Shown here in pieces: positions 2,655-36,767 of a stretch of 64,000 bases of DNA. Both the position numbers and the translations under genes were made by a program. Source of the DNA: Candidatus Chazhemtobacterium aquaticus (GTDB lineage: Bacteria; Patescibacteriota; Microgenomatia; UBA1400; Chazhemtobacteraceae); the NCBI RefSeq assembly GCF_009936135.1, contig NZ_CP047901.1:695927-759926 (forward strand), in the 5' to 3' direction. The notes under the pieces were generated by a model. It was not told where the DNA came from and made no database searches. It was given only the letters and a program-made list of their open reading frames with translations. Each line of letters opens with the position of its first letter. Positions within the stretch are counted from its first letter, which is position 1.

Positions 2655-2945
2655 ATGCAAACATCAATTCACCCAAAATACCATAACGACACCAAAGTAA
2701 CCTGCGCTTGTGGTAACAGCTTCACCACTGGCTCAACTCTTCCGGAAATTAAAGTCGAGATCTGCTCAGCTTGCCACCCCTTCTTCACTGGTGAAATGAG
2801 ATTTGTTGACGTTCAAGGTCGGGTCGAAAAATTCCAAGCCAAACAAAAAGCCGCTACCAGCTACACCAAGAAAAACAAGAAACGTTCAACTCCTACCACC
2901 TCTCAACCGACCAAGACTCTCAAGGAAATGCTTTCCGGCAACTAA
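2655..2945 (+). CDS. rpmE: 50S ribosomal protein L31
   Basis: [28 protein letters not shown] signature, with a K-rich C-terminal extension. Confidence 0.85.
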
Positions 2946-7823: not shown

Positions 7824-7914
7824 CCACTACAGGTTTATACTAACACCCCCCTATTTGCTACAATCTAACCAAGCCCATTAGACAAAGGCACCCACATTAA
7901 AAAGGAGGTTGTCA

Positions 7915-8091
7915 TGCCCGACTCCAAGAATCGCCAGGCCAATCGAAAGGCCAGAAACGCTGGTAAAGAAGCTGGCTTGACCAATGAGCAACAAAGACAG
8001 CTTCACGAAGAGTTAGGAAAAATCCCCAACAAAGACGATCTCCCCTATCGTGAAATCGTCGAAATCGCTAGGGATATCAAGGCTAAGTAGC
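7915..8091 (+). CDS. small basic hypothetical protein (58 aa; missed by the 60-aa ORF track)
   Basis: Strong SD AAAGGAGG 5 nt upstream of ATG; MPDSKNRQANRKARNAGKEAGL... Confidence 0.5.
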
Positions 8092-8565
8092 CACCACCAG
8101 AAAATGTCTAATGGGCTACTACCTATGAAAAACAGGTCAAACATCCTCCAGCTGGCCGTAGGCAAAAAATGTTTTAGAGCATCCAGAAGCATTGGCTCAT
8201 GTCTACTTCTTGAGTTCGGCAAACAAATTCCATATCTTAATCACAAGAACCAAAAAAGGACAAAAGGAGAATATGGACTACTCATAGAAATGGGAGAGTG
8301 GATACTTTCTAAGCAAGATGCACAAATCCTCTCCTCTGAAAGTGACATTCAAAAAATCGACACAAACATCCACATTCTTGAAGACAAAGCCATCACCAAC
8401 ATCTCTCTTAATAAAAAGGGTGATCTAGAAATTTCTTTTGACACAGCTTACTCCTTACAAATCCCATTTAACTCAAGCGAGACAGACCTTTGGATCTTCT
8501 TTACCCCTTCCGTATCCTACTGGCTTGATCAGCGAGGACGTTGGCAGCAGGAAGAAAGAAAATAG
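8050..8565 (+). CDS. hypothetical protein (start uncertain; likely begins at an internal Met)
   Basis: Open frame of 171 aa overlapping the small ORF; no recognisable motifs. Confidence 0.3.
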   Translation: MKSSKSLGISRLSSHHQKMSNGLLPMKNRSNILQLAVGKKCFRASRSIGSCLLLEFGKQIPYLNHKNQKRTKGEYGLLIEMGEWILSKQDAQILSSESDIQKIDTNIHILEDKAITNISLNKKGDLEISFDTAYSLQIPFNSSETDLWIFFTPSVSYWLDQRGRWQQEERK

Positions 8566-8858
8566 ATACACCAAACATAGTCAGCCTATATATCCATAAC
8601 TACACCGCGGTGGTATATACTCATATTATGCCCTTAAACAAAAACGATCTCAGGCTAGTTCGTCAAGTAGTCAATGAGGTAATCGAAAAAATATACAAAA
8701 ACCTACCCACCAAAAACGAATTCTTCAATTCCATGGATCAGCTCATCACCGAGCTGAAAGCCAATCGTCAAGAACAAACCTTCATCGTTCACAGACTGAC
8801 CAACCACGAAAACCGAATCCAAAAAGTCGAAAAACACCTCTCACTTTCTACATCCTAA
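8541..8858 (+). CDS. hypothetical protein
   Basis: ORF only; likely start at MPLNKNDL. Confidence 0.35.
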   Translation: MAAGRKKIDTPNIVSLYIHNYTAVVYTHIMPLNKNDLRLVRQVVNEVIEKIYKNLPTKNEFFNSMDQLITELKANRQEQTFIVHRLTNHENRIQKVEKHLSLSTS

Positions 8859-8921
8859 TCACAAGCGATAGCCTCTTTCCCAACACCCAATCCACTGTTA
8901 CACCAGATTGTTTCCACCACA

Positions 8922-9071
8922 CTATCCCTCCACTTCCTGCCACCTCGTTATTGGCAATCTTACTCCATCAAAAGCTTCAATTACAAAGTCAGGCCTGAAG
9001 ATAAATAACTCACTTGGAGCTGTATTATCCACGTGTATAAATCGCGATACATTTCGGAATCTTCTTAACAA
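8922..9071 (-). pseudogene. C-terminal remnant (about 49 codons) of a paralog of the Cys-rich secreted protein gene at 10731-12449
   Basis: Minus-strand translation gives ...NTAPSELFIFRPDFVIEAFDGVRLPITRWQEVEG*, identical to the C-terminus of the 572-aa protein; an in-frame stop sits immediately upstream at 9072-9074. Confidence 0.7.
8936..9026. repeat. 91-bp direct repeat copy 1 (2 mismatches versus 10745-10835)
   Basis: cctgccacctcgttattggcaatcttactccatcaaaagc[t/c]tcaattacaaagtcaggcc[t/g]gaagataaataactcacttggagctgtatt. Confidence 0.9.
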
Positions 9072-10135
9072 TTAAAGAAGATTTAAAATGCCCAGTGACT
9101 ACCCTCATCTTAGATATTCATTTGATCGAAAGACTTGTCTGACATATCGTCGGGTAATGAAAACACTAGCCAGTTCACTTACCTTTGATACTTCTGATGT
9201 AGCTCGCTTCCGGCTCCATGTTCTGGAGCACTACTACAAGTATGGTCTTGTTCCAACCCTGGATGTCTTTGGGGTCAAGAAGAGTACTCTGTACGACTGG
9301 AAGAAGCGCTTTGAAGTCTCTGGCAAGAAACTCAACAGTCTGGTACCTGTCTCCACCAAACCAAAAGAACTCAGGAGAATGAACACAGACTGGAGACTAG
9401 TGGAGTTGATCAAGACCATGAGAAAAGAATATGGAAACGTTGGTGCCAATATACTAAAACCCTTTGTAGATGCTTTGGCGACAGACCTAAATATCCCCAC
9501 CATTAGCAAGACCACCATCACTAAGATCGTTAAGATACGAAGATTAACTTTTGAGACCAAAGTCAAGCTCAAAAAGAAGAGTAAACAACCACGGTTGCGA
9601 ACCAAAAGGTCTCCTAAAGTCACTTCTGCAGGATACGTTCAACTGGATTGTATTACCCTTTACATTAATCGCGAAAAACATTTGTTTGTGTGCTGTATTG
9701 ATGTCTTTACTAAGTTTGCTTTAGTGAGACGAGTTAAGTCCTTGTCGTCTCAATCAGCCAAACAAGTCTTGGTGACTTTTGAACAACTAACCAGTCACTC
9801 TGTCCACACTGTGCAAACAGACAATGGTAGTGAGTTTCTTGGAGTGTTTGACAGATATCTCGAAGACCAAGGTATCAAACACATCTTTACTTACCCCAGG
9901 TCTCCCAGAATCAATGGAGTGGTGGAGAGACTCAACAGAACTGTCCAAAAAGAGTTCATTAAAAGAAGTGATGAGATTTACTACAATACCAAAGCCTTTG
10001 ATGAAAAGCTGACAAAATGGTTACATTGGTACAATTACCAAAGACCACACTACGCACTTAAATATTTATCACCCGTTCAATTCATTAACACTCAGATTCC
10101 GAAAAGTGGGTGATCTATACACCACGATCCCCAAA
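9031..10135 (+). mobile_element. IS481-like insertion sequence (ends approximate)
   Basis: Single DDE transposase ORF; imperfect inverted ends around ..cacgtgtata.. (left) and ..tatacaccacg.. (right). Confidence 0.5.
9088..10113 (+). CDS. DDE transposase, rve integrase-core, IS481-like
   Basis: QLDCITLY...TDNGSEF...NGVVER catalytic triad context and HWYNYQRPHYAL..SP tail. Confidence 0.75.
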   Translation: MPSDYPHLRYSFDRKTCLTYRRVMKTLASSLTFDTSDVARFRLHVLEHYYKYGLVPTLDVFGVKKSTLYDWKKRFEVSGKKLNSLVPVSTKPKELRRMNTDWRLVELIKTMRKEYGNVGANILKPFVDALATDLNIPTISKTTITKIVKIRRLTFETKVKLKKKSKQPRLRTKRSPKVTSAGYVQLDCITLYINREKHLFVCCIDVFTKFALVRRVKSLSSQSAKQVLVTFEQLTSHSVHTVQTDNGSEFLGVFDRYLEDQGIKHIFTYPRSPRINGVVERLNRTVQKEFIKRSDEIYYNTKAFDEKLTKWLHWYNYQRPHYALKYLSPVQFINTQIPKSG

Positions 10136-10160
10136 ATTCAAAAATGTGTATAATCAAAGC

Positions 10161-10466
10161 ATGCCAAGACAAAGAATCCAATTCAACCTCCCTGTATCTA
10201 TCCTCAAAGAAGGTAAAGTTTTTGTCGCTTATTCACCCGCAATTGATATTTCCACAGTCGGCGAAACATTTGAAGAGGTACAACAGCGATTTGAGGAAGC
10301 CGCAAACATTTTTTTCGAGGAAACGATCGAACACCAAACTTTCGAAGAAGCTTTACTCGAATTAGGATGGCAGAAAGAGAACAAGCGTCTCGTACCCCCC
10401 ATCGTCATATCAAACCAAACAAAACTATTCTCCTTGAGTCACGACGCACCCACACCACATGCCTAG
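10161..10466 (+). CDS. hicB: HicB-family antitoxin (UPF0150/RNase H-like fold)
   Basis: FNLPVSILKEGKVFVAYSPAIDISTVGETFEEVQQRFEEA matches the HicB N-terminal domain; the frame is also open from GTG at 10110, overlapping the transposase stop. Confidence 0.6.
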   Translation: MPRQRIQFNLPVSILKEGKVFVAYSPAIDISTVGETFEEVQQRFEEAANIFFEETIEHQTFEEALLELGWQKENKRLVPPIVISNQTKLFSLSHDAPTPHA

Positions 10467-10689
10467 TATCACCCCCATTCACTGGAAAAAGTTTGAAAAA
10501 TTTTTAATTTACGTGGGCTGCGAATTCAAAAGGCAAAAGGGAGATCACCGTGTATACTGGAGATCAGGCCTAATAAGACCAATCATTCTCCCAACATACA
10601 AAAGTTTACCTGTATTCATCATCAGAAACAATCTCAGAACACTCGGCATTGACCATAATGATTACCTAGAAATACTAAAAACCATCTAG
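10459..10689 (+). CDS. hicA: HicA-family mRNA interferase toxin
   Basis: 76 aa; KKFEKFLIYVGCEFKRQKGDHRVYW...PIILPTYKSLPVFIIRNNLRTLGI matches the HicA/YcfA fold; 8-nt overlap with hicB. Confidence 0.65.
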   Translation: MPSITPIHWKKFEKFLIYVGCEFKRQKGDHRVYWRSGLIRPIILPTYKSLPVFIIRNNLRTLGIDHNDYLEILKTI

Positions 10690-10730
10690 CCACAATCCCT
10701 TTCCACCACTTGCCAACACACTCCCTCCTC

Positions 10731-12449
10731 CTATCCTTCTACCTCCTGCCACCTCGTTATTGGCAATCTTACTCCATCAAAAGCCTCAATTACAAAGTCA
10801 GGCCGGAAGATAAATAACTCACTTGGAGCTGTATTGTTAGTTGTTCCCCTGTCTCTGTTAAGCGAGACACTGCTCCACCCCACAAAAGTACCCTCACCCA
10901 CAAACTGTTGCTCTGTATTCTCATCACCAGTCGAAGCAATGTTTAGGGCATCTGCCATATACACCCCTTCCACTTGAGTTACATTACTAGCAAAGGAAAT
11001 TGATCCTGAAGCAACAATGCCTAAATAAGATCCTGGCTCTACATTAATATTACTGGTAATGGTTACATTACCGTCATGGATGATAAATAGCTTCTCATCT
11101 ACTCCACCACCCCCCATATTCCAATCAGAATCAATAACAATATCGCCACTACTTAAATATATGGTTCCTTCCTCACTGGCTGTTGGTTTACCCGATCCAT
11201 TCCAGGACTCTCGAGGTAGTATCCCTGTTTGAGCATAATAGTAACCATAATCAAAGACTCTACCCTGATAGGAAGACAAAGCGCTTCTCCTGTTTCCACT
11301 AGCAATGGCATTAGGTGTCTCGTAAATACTTAATGACGGTGCAAATGGTAATGCCGAGTCTCCAGTGCTTGAGTTTCTAACCAAAGGTGTATATATCGTT
11401 CCTCCAATATCAACACTTCCACAAGACGCTTGATTCTCAGCTAATATACAGGTCGATGGGATCGTCACAGCAATTCCTTGTTCGCTGGACATATCTCCTC
11501 CCTGAGTTTGGAACCATCCGCCAAAGATTCGATACAATCCCACTCTTCTGGTTACCACCTGTCCCTGAGAGCTTAAAGATATTCCACTTAAAGACCCATC
11601 ACAAAGCAACTTAGGAGGGCTAGTTACCCACAGATTCTCATCCACTGTATATGTCAGGTTGTAGCTGTCGGGTACTGGCAAATTACCTCTTGTGTATGCA
11701 CCGTTAACGTTAGTGGTAGTGGTGTATGAGCTTGAGTGATTTACCTGAGCAGTCAAGGTAACCCCAGCCCCTTCAATCTTTGGTTGAGAGGCAACAGTTG
11801 AACAGTTACTCACCGTACTGGCATCAAAGAAAGTTCCCGAAATTGTTCCTCGACAGTTCTCCGTTTCTGACAGACTTACCCCCGCACAATCATTAGTTCC
11901 ACAGTTCTCACTACAAGTTCTAGTTCTAGTCCTAGTAAAAGTAGTTGGACTACAGGCACTCCAAGCACTCCAAGCAGAAATATATGGACCACATTCAGTA
12001 CAAGTAGTTCCTACAGGTTGCCAATACCAACCGCCACAGGGATCAGCATAGGTGTTGTAGCAAGTTTGAGTTCCACAACCTGAATTACAGAAATACCCAG
12101 TCTGACTATAGTTCCCTATATCACTACTCGAACAAGTACCACCACAACCATCACTCTGACCACAATATGGGGAAGAACAAGAAGGAGTACATGGGGGTGA
12201 ACATGAATAACAATTAAAAAACGTGGGACTACCACACGTCGCAGGATCACCTGGACATGCCCCGGGACAAGAATAATATTCCACACCCTGACAATATCCA
12301 GGCCCACAACTTCCATTTGTACACCACTGGGTATCGCTACGATACATACACGAAGTCCACTTCTCACAAACATCAGCAAATAAATCACTATATCCAAATA
12401 CAACAAAAACCAACACAAAAACAAATACAAACAACCCTTTTCTTATCAT
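10731..12449 (-). CDS. large Cys-rich secreted protein with TSP1-like WSxWS motif and beta-helix-like C-terminal half
   Basis: Signal peptide MIRKGLFVFVFVLVFVVFG; more than 50 Cys in the N-terminal 200 aa; WSAWSACSPTTFTRTRTRTC resembles a thrombospondin type-1 repeat; G/S/T/N-rich repeats in the C-terminal half. Confidence 0.6.
   Translation of the reverse strand: MIRKGLFVFVFVLVFVVFGYSDLFADVCEKWTSCMYRSDTQWCTNGSCGPGYCQGVEYYSCPGACPGDPATCGSPTFFNCYSCSPPCTPSCSSPYCGQSDGCGGTCSSSDIGNYSQTGYFCNSGCGTQTCYNTYADPCGGWYWQPVGTTCTECGPYISAWSAWSACSPTTFTRTRTRTCSENCGTNDCAGVSLSETENCRGTISGTFFDASTVSNCSTVASQPKIEGAGVTLTAQVNHSSSYTTTTNVNGAYTRGNLPVPDSYNLTYTVDENLWVTSPPKLLCDGSLSGISLSSQGQVVTRRVGLYRIFGGWFQTQGGDMSSEQGIAVTIPSTCILAENQASCGSVDIGGTIYTPLVRNSSTGDSALPFAPSLSIYETPNAIASGNRRSALSSYQGRVFDYGYYYAQTGILPRESWNGSGKPTASEEGTIYLSSGDIVIDSDWNMGGGGVDEKLFIIHDGNVTITSNINVEPGSYLGIVASGSISFASNVTQVEGVYMADALNIASTGDENTEQQFVGEGTFVGWSSVSLNRDRGTTNNTAPSELFIFRPDFVIEAFDGVRLPITRWQEVEG
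10745..10835. repeat. 91-bp direct repeat copy 2 (inside the 3' end of the 10731-12449 gene)
   Basis: See copy 1. Confidence 0.9.
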
Positions 12450-13012
12450 AAACCACTACCTCTATAAATCATGATAAAACTCTCAACTTCATTGGTCTCT
12501 ATATTGCTCAATATACCAACAATATCACCAAACCTAACAACATGCATCAGTTCTAAGAAACCAACCTCTTCTGGGTCAGACAAATAAGCACCAACTAACT
12601 GCTCATTAGTAGCCAATTGAGCATTTTCTTCAACCCAACCCTTGTCAACCATAACATTAATCTTCTCCATGCTCGTTTCTACTAATTCCTCCTTAAAGTA
12701 AATCAATGACTCAATATTCTTTGCAGTGTTGTAACAATCAACGCTTTTACCACTCCAAACTAATAAACAACCTACTCTTCCCAGAAACACTCCCGGAGAT
12801 GCTGTCGTCACACCACCGGTATCACTCGACTTGTACTCATGCAAAATCGTAGAAGCATCAGCCAAACTACTATTAACCAGATCCATATGAGATCGTAAAA
12901 AAACGTGACTTTTAATCAAAACCATTCCATACCAACCAACAATAGCCAAAAATATCAAACCCGATATCAACATCAACCAATTCACCCAATCTACCTTCTT
13001 ATTCTCTTCCAC
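12446..13012 (-). CDS. membrane-anchored hypothetical protein (co-transcribed with the Cys-rich protein)
   Basis: N-terminal TM helix; ATGA overlap with the downstream gene. Confidence 0.45.
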   Translation of the reverse strand: MEENKKVDWVNWLMLISGLIFLAIVGWYGMVLIKSHVFLRSHMDLVNSSLADASTILHEYKSSDTGGVTTASPGVFLGRVGCLLVWSGKSVDCYNTAKNIESLIYFKEELVETSMEKINVMVDKGWVEENAQLATNEQLVGAYLSDPEEVGFLELMHVVRFGDIVGILSNIETNEVESFIMIYRGSGL

Positions 13013-13065
13013 ACCTTCATTTAATCACAATTCGAAAAAACAACATCATCTCCAGTCATCAATAT

Positions 13066-13437
13066 CTAACAAGGACATGTCTCGTTTAAACCCACTGTTG
13101 ATGAGAAATATCCCACACTCCAGATACCAGAGTCCAGATATATCTTCCTGATGAACTTAAATTTTTTCTTTAATCGAAAGCTGGTATATGTCTTAATCCT
13201 TTGAACCACCCTGGCTACTGATATATCTGGTGAAATCTCAATTTGTAGATGAATGTGATCACTACCCGTGTTGACAGCGTAAAGATACAGTGTGGGATAT
13301 TTCTTGATCAGTTGGTGTAACTCTAACAGCAACTCTTCCTTGACATACGACTTGATGTATTTCCGTCTGTATTTTGTTCCCCAGACTAGATGGTACTGGT
13401 GTTGATAGGCACAGTGATTAAGGCTTCTCTTTCTCAT
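13066..13437 (-). CDS. tnpA: IS200/IS605-family Y1 (HUH) transposase TnpA
   Basis: YHLVWGTKYRRK and HIHLQIEISPDISVARVVQRIK motifs. Confidence 0.8.
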   Translation of the reverse strand: MRKRSLNHCAYQHQYHLVWGTKYRRKYIKSYVKEELLLELHQLIKKYPTLYLYAVNTGSDHIHLQIEISPDISVARVVQRIKTYTSFRLKKKFKFIRKIYLDSGIWSVGYFSSTVGLNETCPC

Positions 13438-13443
13438 GCAGTC

Positions 13444-13469
13444 AGCATATCAGGTCAGCCTGATATGCT
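13444..13469. repeat. perfect 11-bp-stem hairpin next to the tnpA start (putative IS200 end hairpin)
   Basis: agcatatcagg-tcag-cctgatatgct; a second hairpin ccccgcat...atgcgggg lies at about 13477-13527. Confidence 0.55.
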
Positions 13470-13541
13470 CATTCATCCCCGCATTCCATACGCTAACTAC
13501 TCTCGTGTGACGCTATTCCATGCGGGGTTTCCTGTAAGGAA

Positions 13542-13582
13542 GAAAAAACCGCCAGTCGGGTATGGGTATACCAAAACTGGCG
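13542..13582 (-). terminator. rho-independent terminator of the 13622-13996 gene
   Basis: ccgccagt...actggcgg stem followed by a T6 run on the minus strand. Confidence 0.6.
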
Positions 13583-13621
13583 GTCAGGGCCCTTCGCAGT
13601 TGCGATGGCGCACAGGTGCGC

Positions 13622-13996
13622 TTACGAAGGGCGGACGCGGCAGAACATCTCCGGGCTGTCGGGGACAAAGCCGTCTGCGCATTCCAGGTCGAAGACCACT
13701 TCCGGCTGCTCGACGGTGTTGAAGGTGATGCGCGTGACCCCGCTCAGGGAGTAGGGCACATTGCAGGAAGCGTAAACGCTGGGCGACGGGCTGTCAGCGG
13801 GAGGAACGAACATTCCCCCAGACCAGCCGTTGTCCAACACTTCCGTTGCGCACATCACGCGAGAACCGTCGGCGTAGAAGACGATCAGTCCACCGGGTTG
13901 CGACAGATCAACCTCATCCTGCGCCTGAATGGCCGAGCCACCCAGTGCCAGCATGAGAATCACTGCCATAAAAAGTACGCGGTTAACCTTGTTCAT
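13622..13996 (-). CDS. secreted hypothetical protein on a GC-rich (about 60%) foreign segment
   Basis: Signal peptide MNKVNRVLFMAVILMLALGGSAIQA; SD AGGAGGT 6 nt upstream; local GC and G content differ from the rest of the window. Confidence 0.55.
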   Translation of the reverse strand: MNKVNRVLFMAVILMLALGGSAIQAQDEVDLSQPGGLIVFYADGSRVMCATEVLDNGWSGGMFVPPADSPSPSVYASCNVPYSLSGVTRITFNTVEQPEVVFDLECADGFVPDSPEMFCRVRPS

Positions 13997-14220
13997 CTCG
14001 TACCTCCTGTACGTCTATAGGTTATCCGATATTTATTAATATACAACAAAGTCATCCTCTTGTCAAGTGTTATGGGTCTCTAGGGGGCAAAAATCAATAC
14101 AGCTAAACTGCTACTCAACTGGTATCAGAATACCAAATCCCCTCCTCCTGTCAACTCGGGTACACATCAAGCCATTCTATGTGTCAACCCCCACGCTACT
14201 AAATAACTACTCAACCAGCT

Positions 14221-14289
14221 ACAATATTCCCTATGCAGACTGTTATTAACAACACTCTTACTCACTATCTGCTTATCAAATCCTACCGC
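14221..14289. repeat. about 70-bp imperfect direct repeat copy 1 (matches 17381-17459, the start of the hydrolase gene)
   Basis: tcaaccagctacaatattcc[c/t]tatgcagactgttattaaca[a/c]c[a/g]ctcttactcactatctgct[t/c]atcaa. Confidence 0.85.
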
Positions 14290-14302
14290 TAGACAACTAC
14301 TC
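14243..14302 (+). pseudogene. 19-codon duplicate of the N-terminus of the alpha/beta hydrolase gene (MQTVINNTLTHYLLIKSYR*)
   Basis: Sequence identity to 17403.. including 22 bp of upstream sequence. Confidence 0.65.
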
Positions 14303-14531
14303 TATCAGCCCTACACACCCAAGTAGGTGAAACATTTCTACTAAACCCTATTGGAACAAAACCCACCTTGGCTGCTTGATGTATCGTTGCACCAGCCCCA
14401 GAAGAAAAATCTACCCCAGAAAGATCATAACCAATTCTCGAGGACAACCACTCAACATCGGACCATATCCCCCGAACGCAGACTCTACCGTCCCCCATAC
14501 GACCGTTAACCTCCTCCTCAGAAGTCAACAT
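14289..14531 (-). CDS. hypothetical protein or fragment (80 aa)
   Basis: ORF only. Confidence 0.25.
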   Translation of the reverse strand: MLTSEEEVNGRMGDGRVCVRGIWSDVEWLSSRIGYDLSGVDFSSGAGATIHQAAKVGFVPIGFSRNVSPTWVCRADRVVV

Positions 14532-14593
14532 AGCTTGAGTTAATAACTGATTAATGTCAGTTTGAGCATATATGCCTCGGGCTATTGCAAATA

Positions 14594-15079
14594 TCAGTGA
14601 ATCAGATATTTTTTTAATTCTCCAACCCTGGCGTTAAAAAGACGCTTTCCATAACCAAATCCTCTAAATTTTGGGTTTACAACTACATAAGCCAACTCAC
14701 CAGCCCTATCAAACAACCTCGTACCAACTACTTTATCGACCAAATCCCCAAACTTAGCAAGCCGAAATCGCACCGTTCTCCCTAACACATCGTAACCTGG
14801 TTCTAAGTATAACTGATTTTCAATCTTACTCCATTCATATATTTTATAAGTTCCAACCCCTATCAATTCATCATCACTTATGATCACTTTTGCATGCTGT
14901 TCTCCCGAAGTAATACTCTCTCCAAAAATAGAGACACCCCCCTCAATACTCTTATGCCCATAAAATTCTTGTGCTAGAAGTATAACCGAAAGATCTTGAG
15001 CCCAAACAGGAGCATCATGAAAATCCAAAAGCTTATCATCATTACGGAGCGACTCTCTACGCTCACATCCCATCATCAT
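14594..15079 (-). CDS. GNAT-family N-acetyltransferase
   Basis: VVVNPKFRGFGYGKRLFNA acetyl-CoA-binding motif. Confidence 0.6.
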   Translation of the reverse strand: MMMGCERRESLRNDDKLLDFHDAPVWAQDLSVILLAQEFYGHKSIEGGVSIFGESITSGEQHAKVIISDDELIGVGTYKIYEWSKIENQLYLEPGYDVLGRTVRFRLAKFGDLVDKVVGTRLFDRAGELAYVVVNPKFRGFGYGKRLFNARVGELKKYLIH

Positions 15080-15112
15080 AATTTATATTATATAATAACA
15101 GACACCATTTCT

Positions 15113-16392
15113 ATGGCACCAATAACTGAACTCTTGTCACATTTAGACAAATACCCAAACACCCCATATTTATCTTATACAGAAACAAATACACGAATAG
15201 GTAGAGCCATTACAACAAAAAGAACCAGAACTTCAGATATTTGAAGATGAACCAGCTATATACATCCACTACCACAAAAAGCCGTGGCAAAGGAAAATCG
15301 TTATTGACACACATCTTGACCATCCTGGATTTGCGATCAACCATCAAAAAGAGGCAGTTGCAATCGGAACTATCATTGATGCAAGTTTTACAGCTCCAAA
15401 AAACGAGTTGACCCTACCAGTCATTTTTTATGATCCAGAAGGAAATTACATAGACCACAGCGAACTATCAGATTTCCAGGAGAAAAACGGCCGATGAGTA
15501 AGTCAACCACACACGCTTCACCCTGCAAATACCCTTCTACCAAATTCACAAGCCATTGCGTCTCTAAAGGCCTACAATGACCGAGACATGATGTTTATGA
15601 GATCTGCTGATAATCTCGCAACATCCGCCATAATGCTCGAACTAATTGAATGGCTAATAAGTACATCACCAGGGGGAAACATAACATTTATATTCAATAA
15701 ACTAGAAGAAGTAAGACAGGTTTCAGCAACTGGTATTGCCAAACGAAAGCATACAATGTCAGAGCCGATCGACCAAAACACGTTCATTATCATCTTAGAA
15801 GCTGCAAGCGTCGAACCAATACCACTTAGTGAAGCAGTGCACAAAAAAAATGACATATACTGACGGCCCCGTAATCAGGGTCTCCGACGGTGACATCGTA
15901 TATCAACAATCCGACAAAACAAATCAAGCTGAACACCTTGCCCTAAACGCGGCTGCCAACGCCAGGCTTGAGATACAACATGGACCACTTACCAATAACT
16001 GCAACTCCACACCACACATTCTTTTTGGTAACACACCACATGTGATTGGTGTTACAATACCCTGCGAACACAAACACAATTTTACAAATGAAGGAACATT
16101 TGAACACGAAGCCATCCGTATCTCTGATTTACACACCACCACAAAACTACTTCAACAGATGATAACTGACATCGATGCCCCCATCAAACGAAACACTTCA
16201 GCATTGCTAGAACAAATATACCCGGTCTACCGACTTGATCCACAATCTTTAACATCAAAGAGAAAGCTCTGGTCACAATCGTACGCATGGGCACTACCCA
16301 GACTTCAGAGCGGACAACTCTTCCCAACCAATCAACTCTCAGCAACAAGATTAAGACTAAAACATATCAAAGCATCTATACAAAGTCGCTAA
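15113..16392 (+). pseudogene. M42-family metallopeptidase pseudogene (two frameshifts and one in-frame TGA)
   Basis: Peptidase-like segments lie in different frames: ..VIDTHLDHPGFAI.. (frame 0), an in-frame TGA at 15495-15497, ..RSADNLATSAIMLELIEWL..FIIILEAASVE.., then a frameshift inside an A8 run (15843-15850) into ..IGVTIPCEHKHNF..EAIRISDL.. Confidence 0.5.
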
Positions 16393-27894: not shown

Positions 27895-27915
27895 ACTTCT
27901 TTAAGTATATCAACC

Positions 27916-29703: not shown

Positions 29704-31236
29704 TTACACCTCTACTCCAAACACATCCTCTACTGCTTCAACCAGCTTGTCATCCTTCTCTGGAGCAGTGACATTATCATGCTCCTCCATTACTTTTGCC
29801 GCTCTCACCGCCTTCTCTCCCAACACAAACTTAACTGCTGGCAAACCCACTTCCCTTTTTAGTGTTTCCTCAAGCATTCGCCTTCTCGTCTCCTGTTCCA
29901 ACTGCTCCTTATGAAACTTGTAATATGCCTCTATCACCAAAAAATGATTTTCAACCCTTTTTGGTCTACAGGACCTAAGTAACCCAGCCACACTATGATT
30001 TAAAGGTGACAATGACTTAATCACCTCATCCCATTTACTCATCACCTCATCCAAAGACACCTTCTCTCGAACCTGTACCATATCTGCCTTAATCTCGTCT
30101 CGACCTGTCTCGTTCTTTTCACCCATCTCATCCCTTTTCTCATCTAGTTTGCCAACCTCAGCTTTTTGCTCCTTAGCTACCCTCACGCTTCCACCACTTA
30201 TTTCCACTTCCCTATCTAGCTCAACTGCCACCATTTCTAAAGGTAAAGCCGGTACCACTGCTGTCTTGATCTCTCCGCATGCTCGTGCCACCAACATTGT
30301 CACCACTCGCAATCTCTCAATCTCCGCCTCTATCTCCACCTTACCTATCCCGTATTTTGCTTTTAGCTGACCTCTTACATAATCAAGTAGCTTCTCGGCA
30401 AAGTTACTCCAATCCACACCACCTTTCTCCATACTCTCAAGCTTCTCTAAAACCAACTTAGTTTTACCACTAATCAATAACTGGGCAACTTGCTTAACCT
30501 CTCCACCTCTCACACTTCCCAGTATCTCCTCAACTTTCTTCAAACTAACCTCTTTTCCAAAACTAGCCAGTTGCTCCAACAACTTGTGTCCCTCCCGAAA
30601 ACTCCCATCCACCGACTCAGCCAATAACTCAAGCACCCCTTCCTCAAGTTTTAGCCCTTCACCTTTAACCACTTTACTCAAACTTTTAATCACCTCATCC
30701 TTACCTGCCTTTACAAAACCAACTCGAGTACACCTACTCACTATCGTCTCAGGTACCTTATGCTCCTCAGTTGTACACAACACAAACATTGCATGCTCTG
30801 GTGGCTCCTCCAAAGTCTTAAGCAAAGCGTTAAAAGCCTCTACCGTCAACATGTGTACCTCATCGATGATATACACCTTCTTTCTACCAGCTACCGGTGA
30901 CAAACCAATCTTATCTCTTAACTCCCTGATTGCATCAATCCCTCGATGCGACGCTGCATCAATCTCCATTACATCTACAAAACTTCCCTGTTCTATAGCC
31001 CTACAGTTATCACACTCTAAACACGGCTCACCACTAGCGGTTGGCTTCTCACAATTAACCACCTTAGCCAGTATTCTAGCCGCCGAGGTTTTACCCGAAC
31101 CCCTTGGGCCCACAAACAAATATGCATGGGCCAACTCACCCTTCTTTAACCCCGCCGCCAAAGTATTCCTTACCTCCTCAAGGTCAAGTTCCTCAATTCT
31201 TCTTGGTCGATATTTACGATAGAAACTACTCATCAA
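29704..31236 (-). CDS. dnaX: DNA polymerase III subunit gamma/tau
   Basis: AYLFVGPRGSGKTS P-loop, C4 zinc module, DEVHML box. Confidence 0.85.
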   Translation of the reverse strand: MMSSFYRKYRPRRIEELDLEEVRNTLAAGLKKGELAHAYLFVGPRGSGKTSAARILAKVVNCEKPTASGEPCLECDNCRAIEQGSFVDVMEIDAASHRGIDAIRELRDKIGLSPVAGRKKVYIIDEVHMLTVEAFNALLKTLEEPPEHAMFVLCTTEEHKVPETIVSRCTRVGFVKAGKDEVIKSLSKVVKGEGLKLEEGVLELLAESVDGSFREGHKLLEQLASFGKEVSLKKVEEILGSVRGGEVKQVAQLLISGKTKLVLEKLESMEKGGVDWSNFAEKLLDYVRGQLKAKYGIGKVEIEAEIERLRVVTMLVARACGEIKTAVVPALPLEMVAVELDREVEISGGSVRVAKEQKAEVGKLDEKRDEMGEKNETGRDEIKADMVQVREKVSLDEVMSKWDEVIKSLSPLNHSVAGLLRSCRPKRVENHFLVIEAYYKFHKEQLEQETRRRMLEETLKREVGLPAVKFVLGEKAVRAAKVMEEHDNVTAPEKDDKLVEAVEDVFGVEV

Positions 31237-31364
31237 TCACCACTCTAGAATAGCCCCATCAGTGATATCAACTACCAATTAATAGATCAAAATACTACTC
31301 CTCATCCACATACTATGAAGTATCAGGCAAAACTCAATTCACTAAATTCCTTTCATTAACCCCG

Positions 31365-31393
31365 TTGCAAAATTATTTTTATCATGTTATACT
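31365..31393 (+). promoter_or_regulatory. sigma70-like promoter (TTGCAA-17-TATACT)
   Basis: Near-consensus -35/-10 with 17-nt spacing, 48 nt upstream of the 31442 ATG. Confidence 0.45.
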
Positions 31394-31441
31394 ATAGGTC
31401 CGCAACCAGCGGATTGCACATATATTGCTAAGGAGCACAGA

Positions 31442-31630
31442 ATGGCTAAGAATGCTCACGGTGAAAAGCTCTGCAGGTGTGGGGTGCCGTTAAGATGGCA
31501 TCCAGCAGGCTGCCCCTCCGCGAAGGACCTGCCCAAGGTTCTCGCCAAAATCGAGAAAGAACGGCAAGCAAGAGAGGCCCAAGAAGCCGCTCGAACCACC
31601 GTTCCTGAAGCAGCCGCTGCAACAGACTGA
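31442..31630 (+). CDS. hypothetical 62-aa Cys-containing protein (GC-rich cassette)
   Basis: AAGGAG SD; CRCG...HPAGC; about 58% GC and G-rich, unlike native plus-strand genes. Confidence 0.5.
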   Translation: MAKNAHGEKLCRCGVPLRWHPAGCPSAKDLPKVLAKIEKERQAREAQEAARTTVPEAAAATD

Positions 31631-31662
31631 TCACCACTCCCCTAGCTCTTCTTTCTTTTTTC

Positions 31663-31704
31663 AGCCACCCTGCGAAATACTTTCAAAGGGTGGCTCCTTT
31701 TTTT
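31663..31704 (+). terminator. rho-independent terminator
   Basis: agccaccc/gggtggct stem followed by T7. Confidence 0.65.
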
Positions 31705-31711
31705 CTAGAAT

Positions 31712-32119
31712 CTAATCGTGATGAATCCCCATCAAGTGAAGCAGCCCGTGTTTAACCAAGAAGTCGACTTCCTCATCTACTGTAATCTGTCTCTCTAATG
31801 CTTGCTTCATTGCCTGTGGCCAACTTACAATCACTTCTCCCAAATACAATCCGTTATCAGTGGGTTCAATAAACTCACTTACCTTCTCACTAGTCTCCGT
31901 TTGCGAAAAACTTAATACATCAGTCGTTCCCTCCACCTTTAAATATTTCATATTTAACTCCTTCATCTTCCGATCTCCCACCATCACCACACCTACCTGC
32001 ATCTCGCCCTCCACCCCCATCTCACGCAAAAAATCTCTCACTAATTTTCTAATTCGCTTTCGATCAATCGGATATCGACTATCCGCCCTTATATGAACCT
32101 TAATCTCTTTGTCTCCCAT
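31712..32119 (-). CDS. ybeY: rRNA maturation endoribonuclease YbeY
   Basis: TDVLSF...HGLLHLMGIHHD zinc-binding motif. Confidence 0.8.
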   Translation of the reverse strand: MGDKEIKVHIRADSRYPIDRKRIRKLVRDFLREMGVEGEMQVGVVMVGDRKMKELNMKYLKVEGTTDVLSFSQTETSEKVSEFIEPTDNGLYLGEVIVSWPQAMKQALERQITVDEEVDFLVKHGLLHLMGIHHD

Positions 32120-32123
32120 ACCC

Positions 32124-32558
32124 TTACTTCACCAACTCATTAACAATCCTTGCCACCAAGTTACCATCTACCTTTTCTTTACCAATCTTGCCAATTACCT
32201 TACCAATCACCATTCCTTTATTTACTCCCTCACCAGCTTCCCCTACTACTTCTTTAACCACCTTTCTTACCTCATCCTCACCCACCTGCTCTGGCATATA
32301 CTCCATTAACACCTTCATCTCATCCTCCTCATCCTTAACTCTCTCCTGCTCACCTACCTGACCAAAGGCTTCAATTGCTTCCTTACGTTTCTTTATCTCC
32401 AACTTAACCGCTGCCATCTCATCCTCAGTAGTTACCTGACTACCTCTTTTTTCCAAATACTCCAAAGAAGAAATTAGCATCCGCAAAGCCCTCACCCTGG
32501 GCAAATCTCTCGCCTTGGTAGCTTGATACAAATCTGTTCGAACTTTCTCTATCAACAT
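32124..32558 (-). CDS. GatB/YqeY-domain protein
   Basis: Overall YqeY-like pattern. Confidence 0.55.
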   Translation of the reverse strand: MLIEKVRTDLYQATKARDLPRVRALRMLISSLEYLEKRGSQVTTEDEMAAVKLEIKKRKEAIEAFGQVGEQERVKDEEDEMKVLMEYMPEQVGEDEVRKVVKEVVGEAGEGVNKGMVIGKVIGKIGKEKVDGNLVARIVNELVK

Positions 32559-32785
32559 TAGCGCTTTAATGTCCCTCGACGACGCGCTGCTCTGCGCCTC
32601 TCTCGAGCTTGTTCTTTCTTTTTGATGATTCTCTCTCGTTTTCGCAGTTCAGATGGTGGTACAAAACCCTCCATCAGTCTCTGTTTCATCTTTTCCAACA
32701 CCTCATCAAACATAGTTTCTCTACGAAACTCGCTTAAGACTTGTTGGTTAGAATCACCTGGTTTTTTCCTAATAACTACTGGCAC
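32558..32785 (-). CDS. rpsU: 30S ribosomal protein S21
   Basis: MPVVIRKK...RRRAARRRGTLKR basic tail. Confidence 0.65.
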   Translation of the reverse strand: MPVVIRKKPGDSNQQVLSEFRRETMFDEVLEKMKQRLMEGFVPPSELRKRERIIKKKEQARERRRAARRRGTLKR

Positions 32786-34345: not shown

Positions 34346-36007
34346 CTACATCCTCTCCGGTACTCCAATACCCAACAACCCTAGTCCTTGCTCCAAAACC
34401 TCAACCACTCCCTTGGCCAAAAACCACCGCAAAGGCTCTACCTCACCCTCATCAATCACCCGATGCTTGCTGTAGAAATCATTGAATGACTTAGCCAAAT
34501 CAAAAACATAATCGGCCAGCAAGTTGGGTGAATAATCTAGTGTCGCCTCCTTGACTACCTCTGGAAACTTATCAAGCAACTTGATAACCCTTACTTCCTC
34601 TATATCAAGATTCTTTCTTAAACTTATGTCTTGATTCACCTCACTTGAGGTATCAATTATCCGCCTGGCCCTCACTGTCGCATACTGCACATATGGTCCA
34701 GAATACCCATCCAGTCTTAAAGCCTCCTCCTGATCAAATCGGTACGCTGTTACAGGGCTATGCTTAAGATCAAAAAACTTCACCGCTCCAATACCCACCA
34801 TCTCAGCTGAGTGTTTGTTAATCTCACCCGCTCTCTTCACAATTTCATCAAGCCACTCTGCCATTCTCACTCCCGTTCCTTTCCTGGTACTCATCTTTTT
34901 TCCATCCTCTCCCAAAACCATCCCATGTGCCACATGAACCAGATTATCCCGCTTCACCCAGCCCAGTTTATCCACCGCCGCAAACACTTGTTTAAAATGT
35001 AAACTCTGCTCCCCACCAACTTCGTAAACATACAAATCCGATTTCAATCCCTGCGTCCTGCTTCTATATCTAACTGTCGCCAAATCTCTGGTAAAGTAGG
35101 TTGTCCCCCCGTCTGACTTAACCAGCATTCCAACTGGTAGTCCATCACCTAGATCCATCACCAGTGCTCCCTCACTCTCTCTTGCCAGTCCCTTCTCCTT
35201 TACCTCTCTGATTACCTCCTTCATCTCCTCTTCATAAAAACTCTCTCCATATGCATGCTCTATCTCTACCCCCAGTTGTTTGTATATCTTCTCAAAATCG
35301 GCCTTTGACTTATCTATCGCCACCTGCCAAATACTTCTTGCTCCCTCATCTCCTTGCTCGAGTCTTACAAACGCTTCTTTTGCCTTTTCTCGCAAACTTT
35401 CATCTTCCTTAGCTCTCTGGTTGTACTCCACATACAGTCTCTCCATCTCCTCTACCGTCATTTCACTCAAATCAAGACCTCCTTCCTCAACTGCAGCGAT
35501 AATCATGCCAAACTGAGTTCCCCAATCACCCAAATGATTATCTCCCACTGTCTTCCATCCAGAAAACTCAAACAAATTCCTGATACTTTGCCCAATAATG
35601 GTGCTTCTAAGATGCCCTACCGAGAAATTCTTGGCAATATTCGGACTACTGTACTCAATCAATACCTGCCTACCCTTTCCCCAATCACCACTACCCCAAT
35701 CCTTTCCTTGTTTAACTATTTCCTGTAATCTTTCTACCCACCATTCGGTTTTTATCGTAAAGTTAATAAAACCAGGACCAGCTATCTCTATTCCATCCAA
35801 ACTCTTCATCAAATCTGAATTCTTTAGTTCACTCACAATCTTTTCAGCTTTTTCTATCGGATTACCAGCACCAACAAGCGCTACATTACTGGCCCAATCT
35901 CCATGACCTTCCTCTCTTGGTCTCTCAACAACATAACTCTCTACTGCCAGCTTGAGCTTATGTAAAACCTCATCTATCGCCTTCCTTATCTCTCTCTCCA
36001 TGCCCAT
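34346..36007 (-). CDS. argS: arginyl-tRNA synthetase
   Basis: 553 aa; ...FSVGHLRSTIIG class I motif. Confidence 0.8.
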   Translation of the reverse strand: MGMEREIRKAIDEVLHKLKLAVESYVVERPREEGHGDWASNVALVGAGNPIEKAEKIVSELKNSDLMKSLDGIEIAGPGFINFTIKTEWWVERLQEIVKQGKDWGSGDWGKGRQVLIEYSSPNIAKNFSVGHLRSTIIGQSIRNLFEFSGWKTVGDNHLGDWGTQFGMIIAAVEEGGLDLSEMTVEEMERLYVEYNQRAKEDESLREKAKEAFVRLEQGDEGARSIWQVAIDKSKADFEKIYKQLGVEIEHAYGESFYEEEMKEVIREVKEKGLARESEGALVMDLGDGLPVGMLVKSDGGTTYFTRDLATVRYRSRTQGLKSDLYVYEVGGEQSLHFKQVFAAVDKLGWVKRDNLVHVAHGMVLGEDGKKMSTRKGTGVRMAEWLDEIVKRAGEINKHSAEMVGIGAVKFFDLKHSPVTAYRFDQEEALRLDGYSGPYVQYATVRARRIIDTSSEVNQDISLRKNLDIEEVRVIKLLDKFPEVVKEATLDYSPNLLADYVFDLAKSFNDFYSKHRVIDEGEVEPLRWFLAKGVVEVLEQGLGLLGIGVPERM

Positions 36008-36660: not shown

Positions 36661-36767
36661 AGCGGGTAGGAGGACTCGAACCCCCAACCGTCGGTTTCCA
36701 TCAGAAAGCCTGCAGACCTCCCATGAAAACTGGAAAGCGCCGCTCTATCCAATTGAGCTATACCCGC
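36661..36767 (-). tRNA. 107-nt tRNA-like gene with an internal insertion or duplication in the anticodon arm (possibly Arg-UCU or Lys-UUU)
   Basis: Acceptor GCGGGTA/TACCCGC, D-arm GCTC-AATTGGATA-GAGC, T-arm GGGGG-TTCGAGT-CCTCC; 55 nt between D- and T-arms containing near-duplicate TTTTCATGGGA / TTTCTGATGGAAA. Confidence 0.5.

What the first reader, a model, noticed from the sequence alone, without database searches (positions are those of the whole stretch)
31237..31711. The 62-aa Cys-containing ORF cassette is bracketed by an 8-bp TCTAGAAT and a 9-bp TCACCACTC direct repeat between dnaX and ybeY
TCTAGAAT occurs at 31244-31251 and again at 31704-31711, and TCACCACTC at 31237-31245 and 31631-31639. 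Between them lie a TTGCAA-17-TATACT promoter, an AAGGAG Shine-Dalgarno site, a GC-rich ORF (CRCG..HPAGC, possibly a small zinc-binding protein) and a strong terminator. This architecture looks like a target-site duplication or att-core duplication created when an autonomous micro-cassette inserted exactly between the dnaX start and the ybeY stop.
Basis: seen in the sequence. Interest (0 to 1): 0.7.

Follow-up and report, generated by a model that had tools for sequence, protein, structure and literature searches.

The report
Swappable small zinc-knuckle gene, not insertion
The flagged short repeats are chance matches, but the 62-residue gene between dnaX and ybeY is a real, self-contained gene of a small group of Microgenomates bacteria, and it occurs in very different versions in genomes that are otherwise almost identical.

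Summary
The two direct repeats are not significant. An 8-mer repeat occurs in 82% of shuffles and a 10-mer in 12%. The right-hand copies mutate in close relatives. The left-hand copies lie inside dnaX's own conserved -10/RBS region, which a relative without the small gene also has. There is no target-site duplication.

The ORF (31442-31630, +) is a real gene. Against an 87%-identical relative, dN/dS is 0.07 and differences fall 6/5/23 by codon position. The promoter, 5' hairpin, AAGGAG site and terminator are conserved, and the terminator has two compensatory pairs. The protein is identical to MICH65_0757, a hypothetical protein of Ca. Chazhemtobacterium aquaticus.

It belongs to an undescribed family with the motif C-x-C-G-x-P...H-x3-4-C followed by a helix. 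I found the family only in this slot, in one Microgenomates subclade.

Genomes 98-100% identical in the neighbouring genes carry alleles only 37-42% or 66% identical in protein. ORF synonymous divergence is 1.2 to saturated, against 0-0.14 in the flanks. The divergent block ends at the 5' UTR and at the terminator. Old alleles therefore appear to be exchanged by homologous recombination. Function is unknown; a zinc-binding protein under diversifying pressure is my best guess.

The parts
29704..31236 (-). dnaX (DNA polymerase III tau/gamma). The ORF opens at TTG 31236; the likely start is ATG at 31233.
   Evidence: ORF; PF13177, E 2e-45, plus DnaX_C.
31237..31298 (-). Conserved dnaX promoter/leader block. 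-35 TTGATA is at 31271-31266, -10 TAGAGT at 31247-31242, and a GGTGA RBS-like site lies just upstream of the start. The block contains the left copies of both 'repeats' (31236-31251).
   Evidence: TTGATA-18-TAGAGT; the block is conserved in L001, L096, L100 and L105 (L106 has TAGACT at the -10), and L105 lacks the small gene.
31365..31393 (+). Promoter of the small gene: -35 TTGCAA, 17-nt spacer, extended -10 TGtTATACT.
   Evidence: Both hexamers and the TG are unchanged in L001, L087, L103 and the distant L096.
31399..31413 (+). Small hairpin at the 5' end of the mRNA: TCCGC-loop-GCGGA. Only the loop varies between lineages (AACCA, AACA, TCCCG).
   Evidence: fold; alignments. The position of the transcription start is inferred.
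31430..31435 (+). Shine-Dalgarno site AAGGAG, 6 nt before the ATG.
   Evidence: AAGGAG is kept in front of every allele even though the surrounding 5' UTR diverges.
31442..31630 (+). 62-aa protein gene, identical to MICH65_0757 / QHO63738.1. It has a CCHC knuckle (C11, C13, H20, C24), a helix at residues 30-52 and a disordered Ala/acid-rich tail.
   Evidence: dN/dS 0.067; differences 6/5/23 by codon position; family alignment; AlphaFold2, mean pLDDT 80; identity to QHO63738.1.
31423..31662 (+). Hyperdivergent allelic block: the distal 5' UTR with the SD site, the ORF and the 3' UTR. It is 43-69% identical to L087, where the surrounding 9.7 kb has a median of 97%.
31630..31639 (+). Right copy of ATCACCACTC. 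It starts at the last base of the stop codon and runs into the 3' UTR. It is not conserved.
31663..31704 (+). Intrinsic terminator of the small gene: a 9-bp plus 4-bp hairpin, then CC and U7. On the minus strand the hairpin is followed by an A-run, so it is not an obvious terminator for ybeY transcripts.
   Evidence: -19.8 kcal/mol, z = -3.3; two compensatory pair changes in L096.
31704..31711 (+). Right copy of TCTAGAAT. It runs from the last T of the terminator's T-run to the base before the ybeY stop codon. Within the species it varies (TCTAAAAT, TCTAGAAC).
31712..32119 (-). ybeY (endoribonuclease YbeY).
   Evidence: (PF02130, E 2.7e-25).

Best explanation
The dnaX-ybeY spacer holds an ordinary but lineage-restricted small gene. 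It is transcribed on the opposite strand to its neighbours, from its own strong extended -10 promoter. Transcription runs through a short 5' hairpin and a consensus AAGGAG site and ends at its own U-tailed terminator. The 62-residue cytoplasmic product has an invariant Cys-x-Cys...His-x3-4-Cys cluster, which probably chelates one zinc ion, followed by a long charged helix and a disordered tail.

The gene has occupied this slot through family-level divergence of a Microgenomates subclade; it was not recently inserted. Within one species-level population it exists as at least three old, very different alleles (A, B1, B2). These alleles have been moved between nearly identical genomes by homologous recombination. 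The crossovers fall in the conserved promoter/5' UTR on one side and in the conserved terminator (or, for B1 against B2, the shared 3' UTR) on the other.

The flagged 8- to 10-bp repeats are coincidences. The left copies are part of dnaX's -10/RBS region.

Shown: protein coding, the expression signals, synteny, allele divergence and phylogenetic incongruence. Inferred: zinc binding, the recombination mechanism, and a role as a binding or regulatory protein whose partner is itself variable, such as a phage or host factor.
For: Coding:
- Against L001, dN/dS is 0.067 and differences fall 6/5/23 by codon position.
- The in-frame motif is kept across six sequences that are 37-89% identical.

Expression signals: found by the scan and conserved out to L096, where the terminator stem has two compensatory pairs.

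Synteny: the family is found only in the ybeY|dnaX slot and always antisense to the neighbours. This holds in L001-L006, L087-L092 and L102-L104, and in L096/L097 and L106, where gene callers missed it.

Family size: an exhaustive HMMER search of 1.84 billion representatives found only this family.

Hypervariability:
- The ybeY-yqeY-S21 block is 98-100% identical in nucleotides among window, L002, L003, L087, L103 and L104. The small protein is only 37-42% identical between A and B, and 66% between B1 and B2.
- ORF dS is 1.19 (B1 vs B2) or saturated (A vs B). Flank dS is 0-0.14.
- In 100-nt windows the block is 43-69% identical, against a median of 97%.

Incongruence: L001 is 87% identical to the window overall and shares allele A at 88-89% protein identity. 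L087 is 95% identical overall but carries allele B at about 40%.

Not local hypermutation: for window vs L001 the ORF dS (1.06) lies within the flank range of 0.24-1.47.

Structure: AlphaFold2 gives mean pLDDT 80, with 81-91 over residues 1-40 and a helix at 30-52.
Against: - There is no expression or metal-binding data.
- dN/dS between alleles is 0.2-0.4, not above 1, so positive selection is not demonstrated. With dS saturated the ratio is unreliable.
- I did not find alleles A, B1 and B2 in the same sample, so they may mark separate populations rather than a balanced polymorphism.
- No donor lineage for any allele has been identified.
- The high GC (55-60%) and high GC3 of every allele are unexplained.
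Confidence: 0.75

Rival explanations
1. One reading: a mobile micro-cassette inserted between dnaX and ybeY and duplicated TCTAGAAT and/or TCACCACTC as a target-site or att-core duplication.
For: The repeats exist at the stated positions. The unit carries its own promoter and terminator. A distant relative, L105, has no gene in the slot. Other lineages carry different small genes there.
Against: - The repeats are at chance level, and equally good chance repeats abound in the same 651 nt.
- The right-hand copies mutate within the species.
- The left-hand copies lie in dnaX's conserved -10/RBS element, which is also present at the empty site of L105.
- Two overlapping repeats on the left map to two places 73 bp apart on the right, which no single duplication produces.
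- There are no terminal inverted repeats, no second copy in 64 kb and no recombinase.
- The gene is syntenic across family-level divergence.
Confidence: 0.03
2. The alleles arose in place by very fast, positively selected or hypermutation-driven divergence (for example a diversity-generating mechanism), not by import of old alleles through recombination.
For: Divergence is confined to about 240 nt with sharp edges. The protein evolves faster than its neighbours: dN against L096 is 0.54, compared with 0.11 for YbeY and 0.29 for YqeY.
Against: - Synonymous sites are saturated between alleles while flank dS is 0-0.14. Selection on the protein cannot do that.
- Within allele A (window vs L001) the ORF dS matches the flanks and dN/dS is 0.07, so there is no standing hypermutation.
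- Each allele was recovered with an identical protein sequence from several independent assemblies.
- No template repeat or second copy exists in the window.
- The 5' and 3' UTRs diverge too, not only the codons.
Confidence: 0.1
3. The GC-rich segment is not protein-coding. Instead it is a structured RNA, or the real gene is an ORF on the minus strand, co-directional with ybeY and dnaX.
For: GC is 58% against 45% for the genome, which is what a structured RNA would show. In many bacteria the SRP RNA gene precedes dnaX (my own knowledge). Several other frames are also open. Gene callers chose the opposite strand in L096/L097.
Against: - There is no Rfam match, even at E <= 10.
- Substitutions concentrate at third positions of the plus-strand frame, 23 of 34. 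Those positions are not third positions of the 63-codon minus-strand ORF.
- The Cys/His motif is conserved in frame across alleles that are about 50% identical in nucleotides.
- The SD site, promoter and U-tailed terminator all face the plus strand.
Confidence: 0.04
4. The divergent alleles are assembly or binning chimeras from different organisms.
For: Most of the contigs come from metagenomes.
Against: Allele A lies in a closed 801.5-kb genome and in 10 or more contigs. B1 was found in six contigs from six samples, including a 106.8-kb contig. B2 was found in three contigs. Both junctions are seamless within conserved sequence.
Confidence: 0.02

Closest known systems
MICH65_0757 (QHO63738.1; UniRef100_A0A857NI65), hypothetical protein of Candidatus Chazhemtobacterium aquaticus
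   Same: The 62-aa sequence is identical. The window's base composition (C 31%, G 13%) matches the strand disparity reported for that genome (PMC7143001).
   Different: Nothing differs. The gene is already annotated, but only as 'hypothetical'. I found no family assignment, allele analysis or function for it in the sources I checked.
Allelic 'specificity' loci kept as old, sharply bounded alleles and shuffled by homologous recombination, such as the comC, comQXP and agrD pherotype loci (my own knowledge)
   Same: A small gene carries alleles far more diverged than their near-identical flanks. The edges are sharp, the allele tree disagrees with the genome tree, and each allele is under purifying selection.
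   Different: There is no adjacent receptor or processing gene that co-varies. The product has no leader or signal peptide and looks like a cytoplasmic zinc knuckle. Coexistence of alleles in one community has not been shown.
CCHC zinc knuckles and the SEC-C / SecA metal-binding motif (PF02810; C-x-C-x8-C-[CH])
   Same: A short Cys/His cluster begins with C-x-C-G and has an aromatic residue before the distal ligands. The protein is small, and the cluster is the only invariant part.
   Different: The ligand order and spacing differ (C-x-C-x6-8-H-x3-4-C). There is no Pfam hit even at E <= 1-10. There is no structural match. Metal binding is untested.
IS/MITE insertions with target-site duplications, and integron gene cassettes
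   Same: A small unit sits between two housekeeping genes, and short direct repeats lie nearby.
   Different: The repeats are at chance level and not conserved. There are no terminal inverted repeats, no transposase or integrase and no other copies. The unit has its own promoter, which integron cassettes typically lack. It is stably syntenic over long evolutionary distances.

Membership tests
Transposable element or cassette insertion with target-site duplication | Identical direct repeats lie exactly at the two ends of the inserted segment, more often than chance allows, and are conserved among carriers. | tested here: not met
   An 8-mer repeat occurs in 82% of shuffles and a 10-mer in 12%. 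The right-hand copies vary among close relatives. The repeats do not coincide with the variable block at 31423-31662.
Transposable element or cassette insertion with target-site duplication | The empty site in relatives carries a single copy of the duplicated sequence. | tested here: not met
   The L105 empty site is 131 bp long. It keeps the dnaX promoter element that contains the left 'repeat', and it has no junction of the predicted kind. L105 is a distant relative (YbeY 60% identical). I found no close relative with an empty site.
Transposable element or cassette insertion with target-site duplication | Terminal inverted repeats, a recombinase, or multiple copies. | tested here: not met
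   The only strong inverted repeat (87% complementary arms, 3 nt apart) is the terminator hairpin; the other pairs are short or weak and do not sit at the unit's ends. There is no other copy of the DNA or the protein in 64 kb. The genome is reported to lack genes related to mobile elements (PMC7143001).
Integron gene cassette | A promoterless ORF followed by an attC site, next to intI and attI. | tested here: not met
   The unit has its own conserved promoter. The neighbours are dnaX and ybeY, with no integrase. An attC covariance model was not available, so attC itself could not be scored.
Independent sigma-70-type transcription unit (promoter, SD site, ORF, intrinsic terminator) | -35/-10 hexamers at 16-18 nt spacing, an SD site 5-10 nt before the start codon, and a GC-rich hairpin plus U-tract after the stop codon, all conserved in relatives. 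| tested here: met
   The terminator shows two compensatory pairs in L096. Actual transcription cannot be tested with these tools.
Protein-coding gene under purifying selection | dN/dS well below 1, third-position excess, and a conserved in-frame motif. | tested here: met
   dN/dS is 0.067 and differences fall 6/5/23 by codon position. B1 vs B2 gives 0.22. The motif is conserved in six sequences.
Zinc-binding CCHC knuckle protein | Four invariant Cys/His ligands close together in sequence. | tested here: met
   C11, C13, H20 and C24 are invariant in all six members, with G14 and P16. The region has pLDDT 81-91.
Zinc-binding CCHC knuckle protein | Stoichiometric zinc binding with tetrahedral ligand geometry. 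| not testable with these tools
Biochemistry is needed.
SEC-C / SecA metal-binding domain (PF02810) | A match to the Pfam model, with C-x-C-x8-C-[CH] spacing. | tested here: not met
   There is no Pfam hit for any member. The spacing is C-x-C-x6-8-H-x3-4-C.
Hypervariable allelic locus shuffled by homologous recombination | Allele divergence far exceeds flank divergence, with sharp boundaries inside conserved sequence. | tested here: met
   ORF dS is 1.2 to saturated against 0-0.14 in the flanks. The edges lie at the 5' UTR and at the terminator (A vs B) or the stop codon (B1 vs B2).
Hypervariable allelic locus shuffled by homologous recombination | The allele tree disagrees with the genome tree. 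| tested here: met
   L001 (87% identical overall) shares allele A. L087, L103 and L104 (95-99% identical overall) carry the B alleles.
Hypervariable allelic locus shuffled by homologous recombination | Alleles coexist in one population, or there is a formal signal of balancing or positive selection. | tested here: inconclusive
   I did not find alleles in a shared sample. Between-allele dN/dS is 0.2-0.4 with dS saturated. Read-level population data were not available.
Diversity-generating retroelement target | A template repeat near-identical to the variable region, plus a reverse transcriptase. | tested here: not met
   There is no second copy in the 64-kb window. The rest of the genome was not searched.

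The most novel reading that the evidence does not exclude
The small CCHC protein is a conflict or specificity determinant. It would bind a variable partner such as a phage protein, a host-cell factor of this presumed episymbiont, or a co-varying self protein. Frequency-dependent selection would keep ancient alleles alive and favour their exchange. The conserved promoter and terminator would then act as built-in recombination arms, making a minimal 'allele-swap cassette'. The genome is reported to lack CRISPR and restriction-modification systems, so this could be part of an unrecognised defence or compatibility system. The persistent high GC3 of all alleles would be a footprint of GC-biased gene conversion at a recombination hotspot.
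Probability: 0.15. Interest if true: 0.7.

Novelty: new member of a known kind. Interest (0 to 1): 0.4.

Why it matters
As flagged, with a duplication-bracketed mobile micro-cassette, the finding does not hold and should not be carried forward.

What remains is modest but real. It is an undescribed small Cys/His protein family restricted to a Microgenomates (CPR) subclade. Gene callers sometimes miss it or call it on the wrong strand. It is the single hyperdivergent spot in about 10 kb of otherwise 95-99% identical housekeeping DNA.

CPR bacteria have tiny genomes, few recognised defence systems and many unexplained small proteins. A small gene that keeps several old alleles and swaps them between clones points to something under unusual selection. 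It is cheap to test for zinc binding, for interaction partners and at the level of population reads.

It is also a cautionary example. Repeats of 8-10 bp in a compositionally skewed genome are expected by chance.

Tried and rejected
- SRP RNA (ffs) upstream of dnaX, or any other known RNA. Rfam gave nothing in the spacer at gathering thresholds or at E <= 10 apart from two chance-level hits.
- Foreign origin judged from composition. GC3 is 0.53 against a genome value of 0.45 +/- 0.06, which is not decisive. Every allele in every lineage is GC-rich and unskewed, so the anomaly belongs to the gene and does not mark recent arrival.
- Close relatives in the GTDB species-representative genomes. None was found; the best DnaX match was 45% identical.
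- A metagenome DNA-pattern scan with the conserved dnaX leader. It returned only three contigs I already held.
- A viral link. None of 532 pattern matches in IMG/VR was confirmed.
- P0004, a 469-aa repeat protein at E 6e-6. I rejected it as a low-complexity artefact.
- A 37-aa 'CRC...HPC' ORF in L007. It overlaps the end of ybeY and did not score with the family HMM, so I rejected it as coincidence.
- Literature searches for CPR or Microgenomates small zinc or hypervariable proteins. No papers were found.

Full report
**1. What is in the sequence**

The interval 31237-31711 is the spacer between dnaX and ybeY. dnaX lies at 29704-31236 on the minus strand, with a likely ATG at 31233. ybeY lies at 31712-32119 on the minus strand. 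These two genes are part of a long minus-strand housekeeping run: recR, ybaB, a 93-aa ORF and dnaX on one side; ybeY, yqeY, an S21-like ORF, HIT, rseP and argS on the other.

- TCTAGAAT at 31244 and 31704.
- TCACCACTC at 31237 and 31631. It is actually a 10-mer, ATCACCACTC, at 31236 and 31630.
- TTGCAA-17-TATACT at 31365-31393, with a TG extension.
- AAGGAG at 31430-31435.
- The 62-codon ORF at 31442-31630.
- A hairpin at 31663-31695 followed by CC+U7 (-19.8 kcal/mol, z = -3.3).

**2. The repeats are chance**

Shuffles of the spacer that preserve dinucleotide content contain a repeated 8-mer in 82% of trials (mean 2.3 per shuffle), a 9-mer in 36% and a 10-mer in 12%.

The plus strand is strongly C-rich: C 31%, G 13%. 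Both words recur elsewhere in the window. The same 651 nt contain another exact 10-mer pair and two more exact 8-mer pairs. One of these, CCCCATCA at 31254 and 31727, 'brackets' the ORF just as well.

In close relatives the right TCTAGAAT reads TCTAAAAT (L002-L004), TTTAAAAT (L001) or TCTAGAAC (L087). The right TCACCACTC reads TCACCATCC in L001 and is missing from L087 and L103.

The left copies are functional dnaX sequence. On the minus strand they read ATTCTAGAGTGGTGAT. This stretch holds a -10 box, TAGAGT (31247-31242), that pairs with TTGATA 18 nt upstream, and a GGTGA ribosome-binding site. The TAGAGT/TTGA element is conserved upstream of dnaX in L001, L096, L100 and L105, and in L106 as TAGACT.

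**3. The empty-site test**

In L105, YbeY is 60% identical to the window's protein and synteny is complete from argS to recR. There ybeY and dnaX are 131 bp apart and no small gene lies between them. The dnaX promoter element is present in that spacer.

I found no terminal inverted repeats, no second copy of the DNA or protein in 64 kb, and no recombinase. The published genome description reports no genes related to mobile elements or integrated prophages (PMC7143001). The target-site or att duplication model is therefore not supported.

**4. The ORF is a real gene**

The comparison here is with L001, a relative that is 87% identical overall:
- The ORF differs at 6, 5 and 23 first, second and third codon positions.
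- dN/dS is 0.067 and dS is 1.06, which lies within the range of the neighbouring genes (0.24-1.47).

The expression signals are conserved as far as L096, whose YbeY is 81% identical:
- The promoter hexamers and TG extension are kept.
- A 5'-terminal hairpin, TCCGC-loop-GCGGA, varies only in its loop.
- The AAGGAG site is kept.
- The terminator stem shows two compensatory double changes there: A-U/G-C becomes G-C/A-U.

There is no Rfam match on either strand. Other frames are open only because the segment is GC-rich.

The protein is identical to QHO63738.1 (MICH65_0757), a 'hypothetical protein' of Candidatus Chazhemtobacterium aquaticus. The window's extreme G/C strand disparity matches that closed 801.5-kb genome (PMC7143001).

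**5. The family**

Word-indexed and exhaustive HMMER searches found only near relatives plus two divergent 59-aa proteins, P0005 and P0108.

All of them lie in the same slot between dnaX and ybeY, on the opposite strand.

A family HMM run over six-frame ORFs of all fetched loci added two uncalled members in the same slot and orientation:
- L096/L097, where the gene caller had chosen the wrong strand.
- L106, whose YbeY is 67% identical (E 1.2e-6).

The shared features are C-[KR]-C-G-[VIL]-P, then 3-5 residues, then His, then 3-4 residues ending in Gly-Cys. After that comes a helix with conserved Leu, Ile and Lys positions. The two tails are variable.

AlphaFold2 gives mean pLDDT 80, with 81-91 over residues 1-40, a helix at 30-52 and a disordered C-terminus.

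No library or structure search gave a meaningful match. Zinc binding is therefore a reasonable inference from four invariant ligands, not a demonstrated fact.

Other relatives fill the slot differently:
- L100 has five small membrane ORFs.
- L098 has a large gene.
- L105 has nothing.

**6. The unexpected part: very different alleles in near-identical genomes**

L087 is 95% identical to the window over about 10 kb. L103 and L104 are 98-99% identical to it in the ybeY-yqeY-S21 block. Yet their small proteins are only 37-42% identical to the window's. P0005 and P0108 are 66% identical to each other.

| Comparison | ORF | Flanks |
|---|---|---|
| Window vs L087, 100-nt windows | 43-69% identity across 31406-31706 | median 97% |
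| Window vs L087, dS | saturated (pS 0.74) | 0-0.14 |
| L087 vs L103, dS | 1.19 | 0.05-0.14 |

The divergent block starts just after the 5' hairpin, at about 31423. It ends just before the terminator hairpin, at about 31662, for A against B, and at the stop codon for B1 against B2.

The more distant L001 shares the window's allele type, so the allele tree conflicts with the genome tree.

Saturated synonymous sites rule out in-place positive selection as the cause of this divergence. Normal dS and strong constraint within allele A rule out standing hypermutation. Each allele recurs with an identical protein sequence in several independent assemblies, which rules out chimeras.

The simplest reading is that old alleles are exchanged by homologous recombination, with crossovers in the conserved promoter/5' UTR and terminator/3' UTR.

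Between-allele dN/dS is 0.2-0.4, so positive selection is not shown. I did not find the alleles in a shared sample, so balancing selection is also not shown.

All alleles are GC-rich (55-60%, GC3 0.53-0.76) and unskewed, in loci that are 44-48% GC with skew of -0.35 to -0.45. This could be a footprint of biased gene conversion or of selection. It remains unexplained.

**7. Verdict**

The insertion-duplication interpretation fails.

What is there is an already-annotated but uncharacterised small gene. It founds a small lineage-restricted family and is notable for hyperdivergent, recombining alleles. Interest is moderate (0.4). Function remains open. My best guess, at low confidence, is a zinc-knuckle binding or regulatory protein whose partner is itself variable.

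Noticed in passing
window 27906-27909; L002 551-1475; L087 1536-2460: The window lacks a segment of about 925 bp carrying a PIG-L family (PF02585) gene. The 95-97% identical relatives L002, L087 and L088 have this segment between cysS and a 141-aa ORF, so it is a clean presence/absence difference within the species.
   Followed up: partly
window 31237-31345 (minus strand, upstream of dnaX): This non-coding stretch is about 97% identical to L001, where neighbouring genes have synonymous divergence around 1. Its core, 31237-31298, is recognisable even in L105 (YbeY 60% identical). Only 11 nt separate the -10 TAGAGT from the ATG at 31233, so dnaX may be expressed as a leaderless or very short-leader mRNA. 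L096 has about 24 extra nt with a GAGG site.
   Followed up: partly
window 31442-31630 and its orthologues in L001, L087, L103, L096, L106: Every allele of the small gene is 55-60% GC with GC3 of 0.53-0.76 and GC skew near zero. The host loci are 44-48% GC with skew of -0.35 to -0.45. The anomaly persists across lineages, so it does not mark recent arrival. GC-biased gene conversion or selection are possible causes.
   Followed up: partly
L096 4424-4603 (+) versus 4469-4651 (-); L097 2653-2832 (+) versus 2698-2880 (-); L106 1284-1475 (-): Gene callers annotated a spurious same-strand 59-aa ORF, or nothing at all, where the conserved CCHC gene lies on the opposite strand. The family is therefore under-counted in protein databases.
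   Followed up: yes
L100 4428-5661; L106 1553-1771; L098 4453-6978: In other Microgenomates relatives the ybeY-dnaX slot holds different content. L100 has five small predicted membrane ORFs, L106 an extra 72-aa ORF, and L098 a gene of more than 840 aa. The slot looks like a recurrent landing place for accessory genes.
   Followed up: partly
window 31663-31704, minus strand: The terminator hairpin has T-runs on both sides of the plus strand. On the minus strand it is therefore flanked by A-runs and is not an obvious terminator for ybeY. Read-through from ybeY would be antisense to the small gene's mRNA before reaching dnaX.
   Followed up: no
window 7500-15900: Several stretches here have GC skew near zero in a window whose mean skew is -0.41. 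They include a plus-strand 342-aa ORF at 9088-10113 with skew -0.05. I did not examine them.
   Followed up: no
window 36661-36767 (minus strand): This tRNA match spans 107 nt, against a 71-position model, and has the lowest score of the seven tRNAs (41.7 bits). It may carry an intron or another insertion.
   Followed up: no
window 32558-32785 (minus strand): This 75-aa ORF lies between HIT and yqeY, in the position usual for rpsU. It matches the S21 model only weakly (TIGR00030, E 0.083, below the cut-off) and has no Pfam hit. It is conserved in all relatives examined.
   Followed up: partly
window 30106-30600 (dnaX linker region) and 34506-34605 (argS): These are secondary low-identity patches against close relatives: 72% vs L002 at 30106, 86-89% vs L087, and 84-85% at 34506. 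They are much milder than the small-gene block.
   Followed up: no
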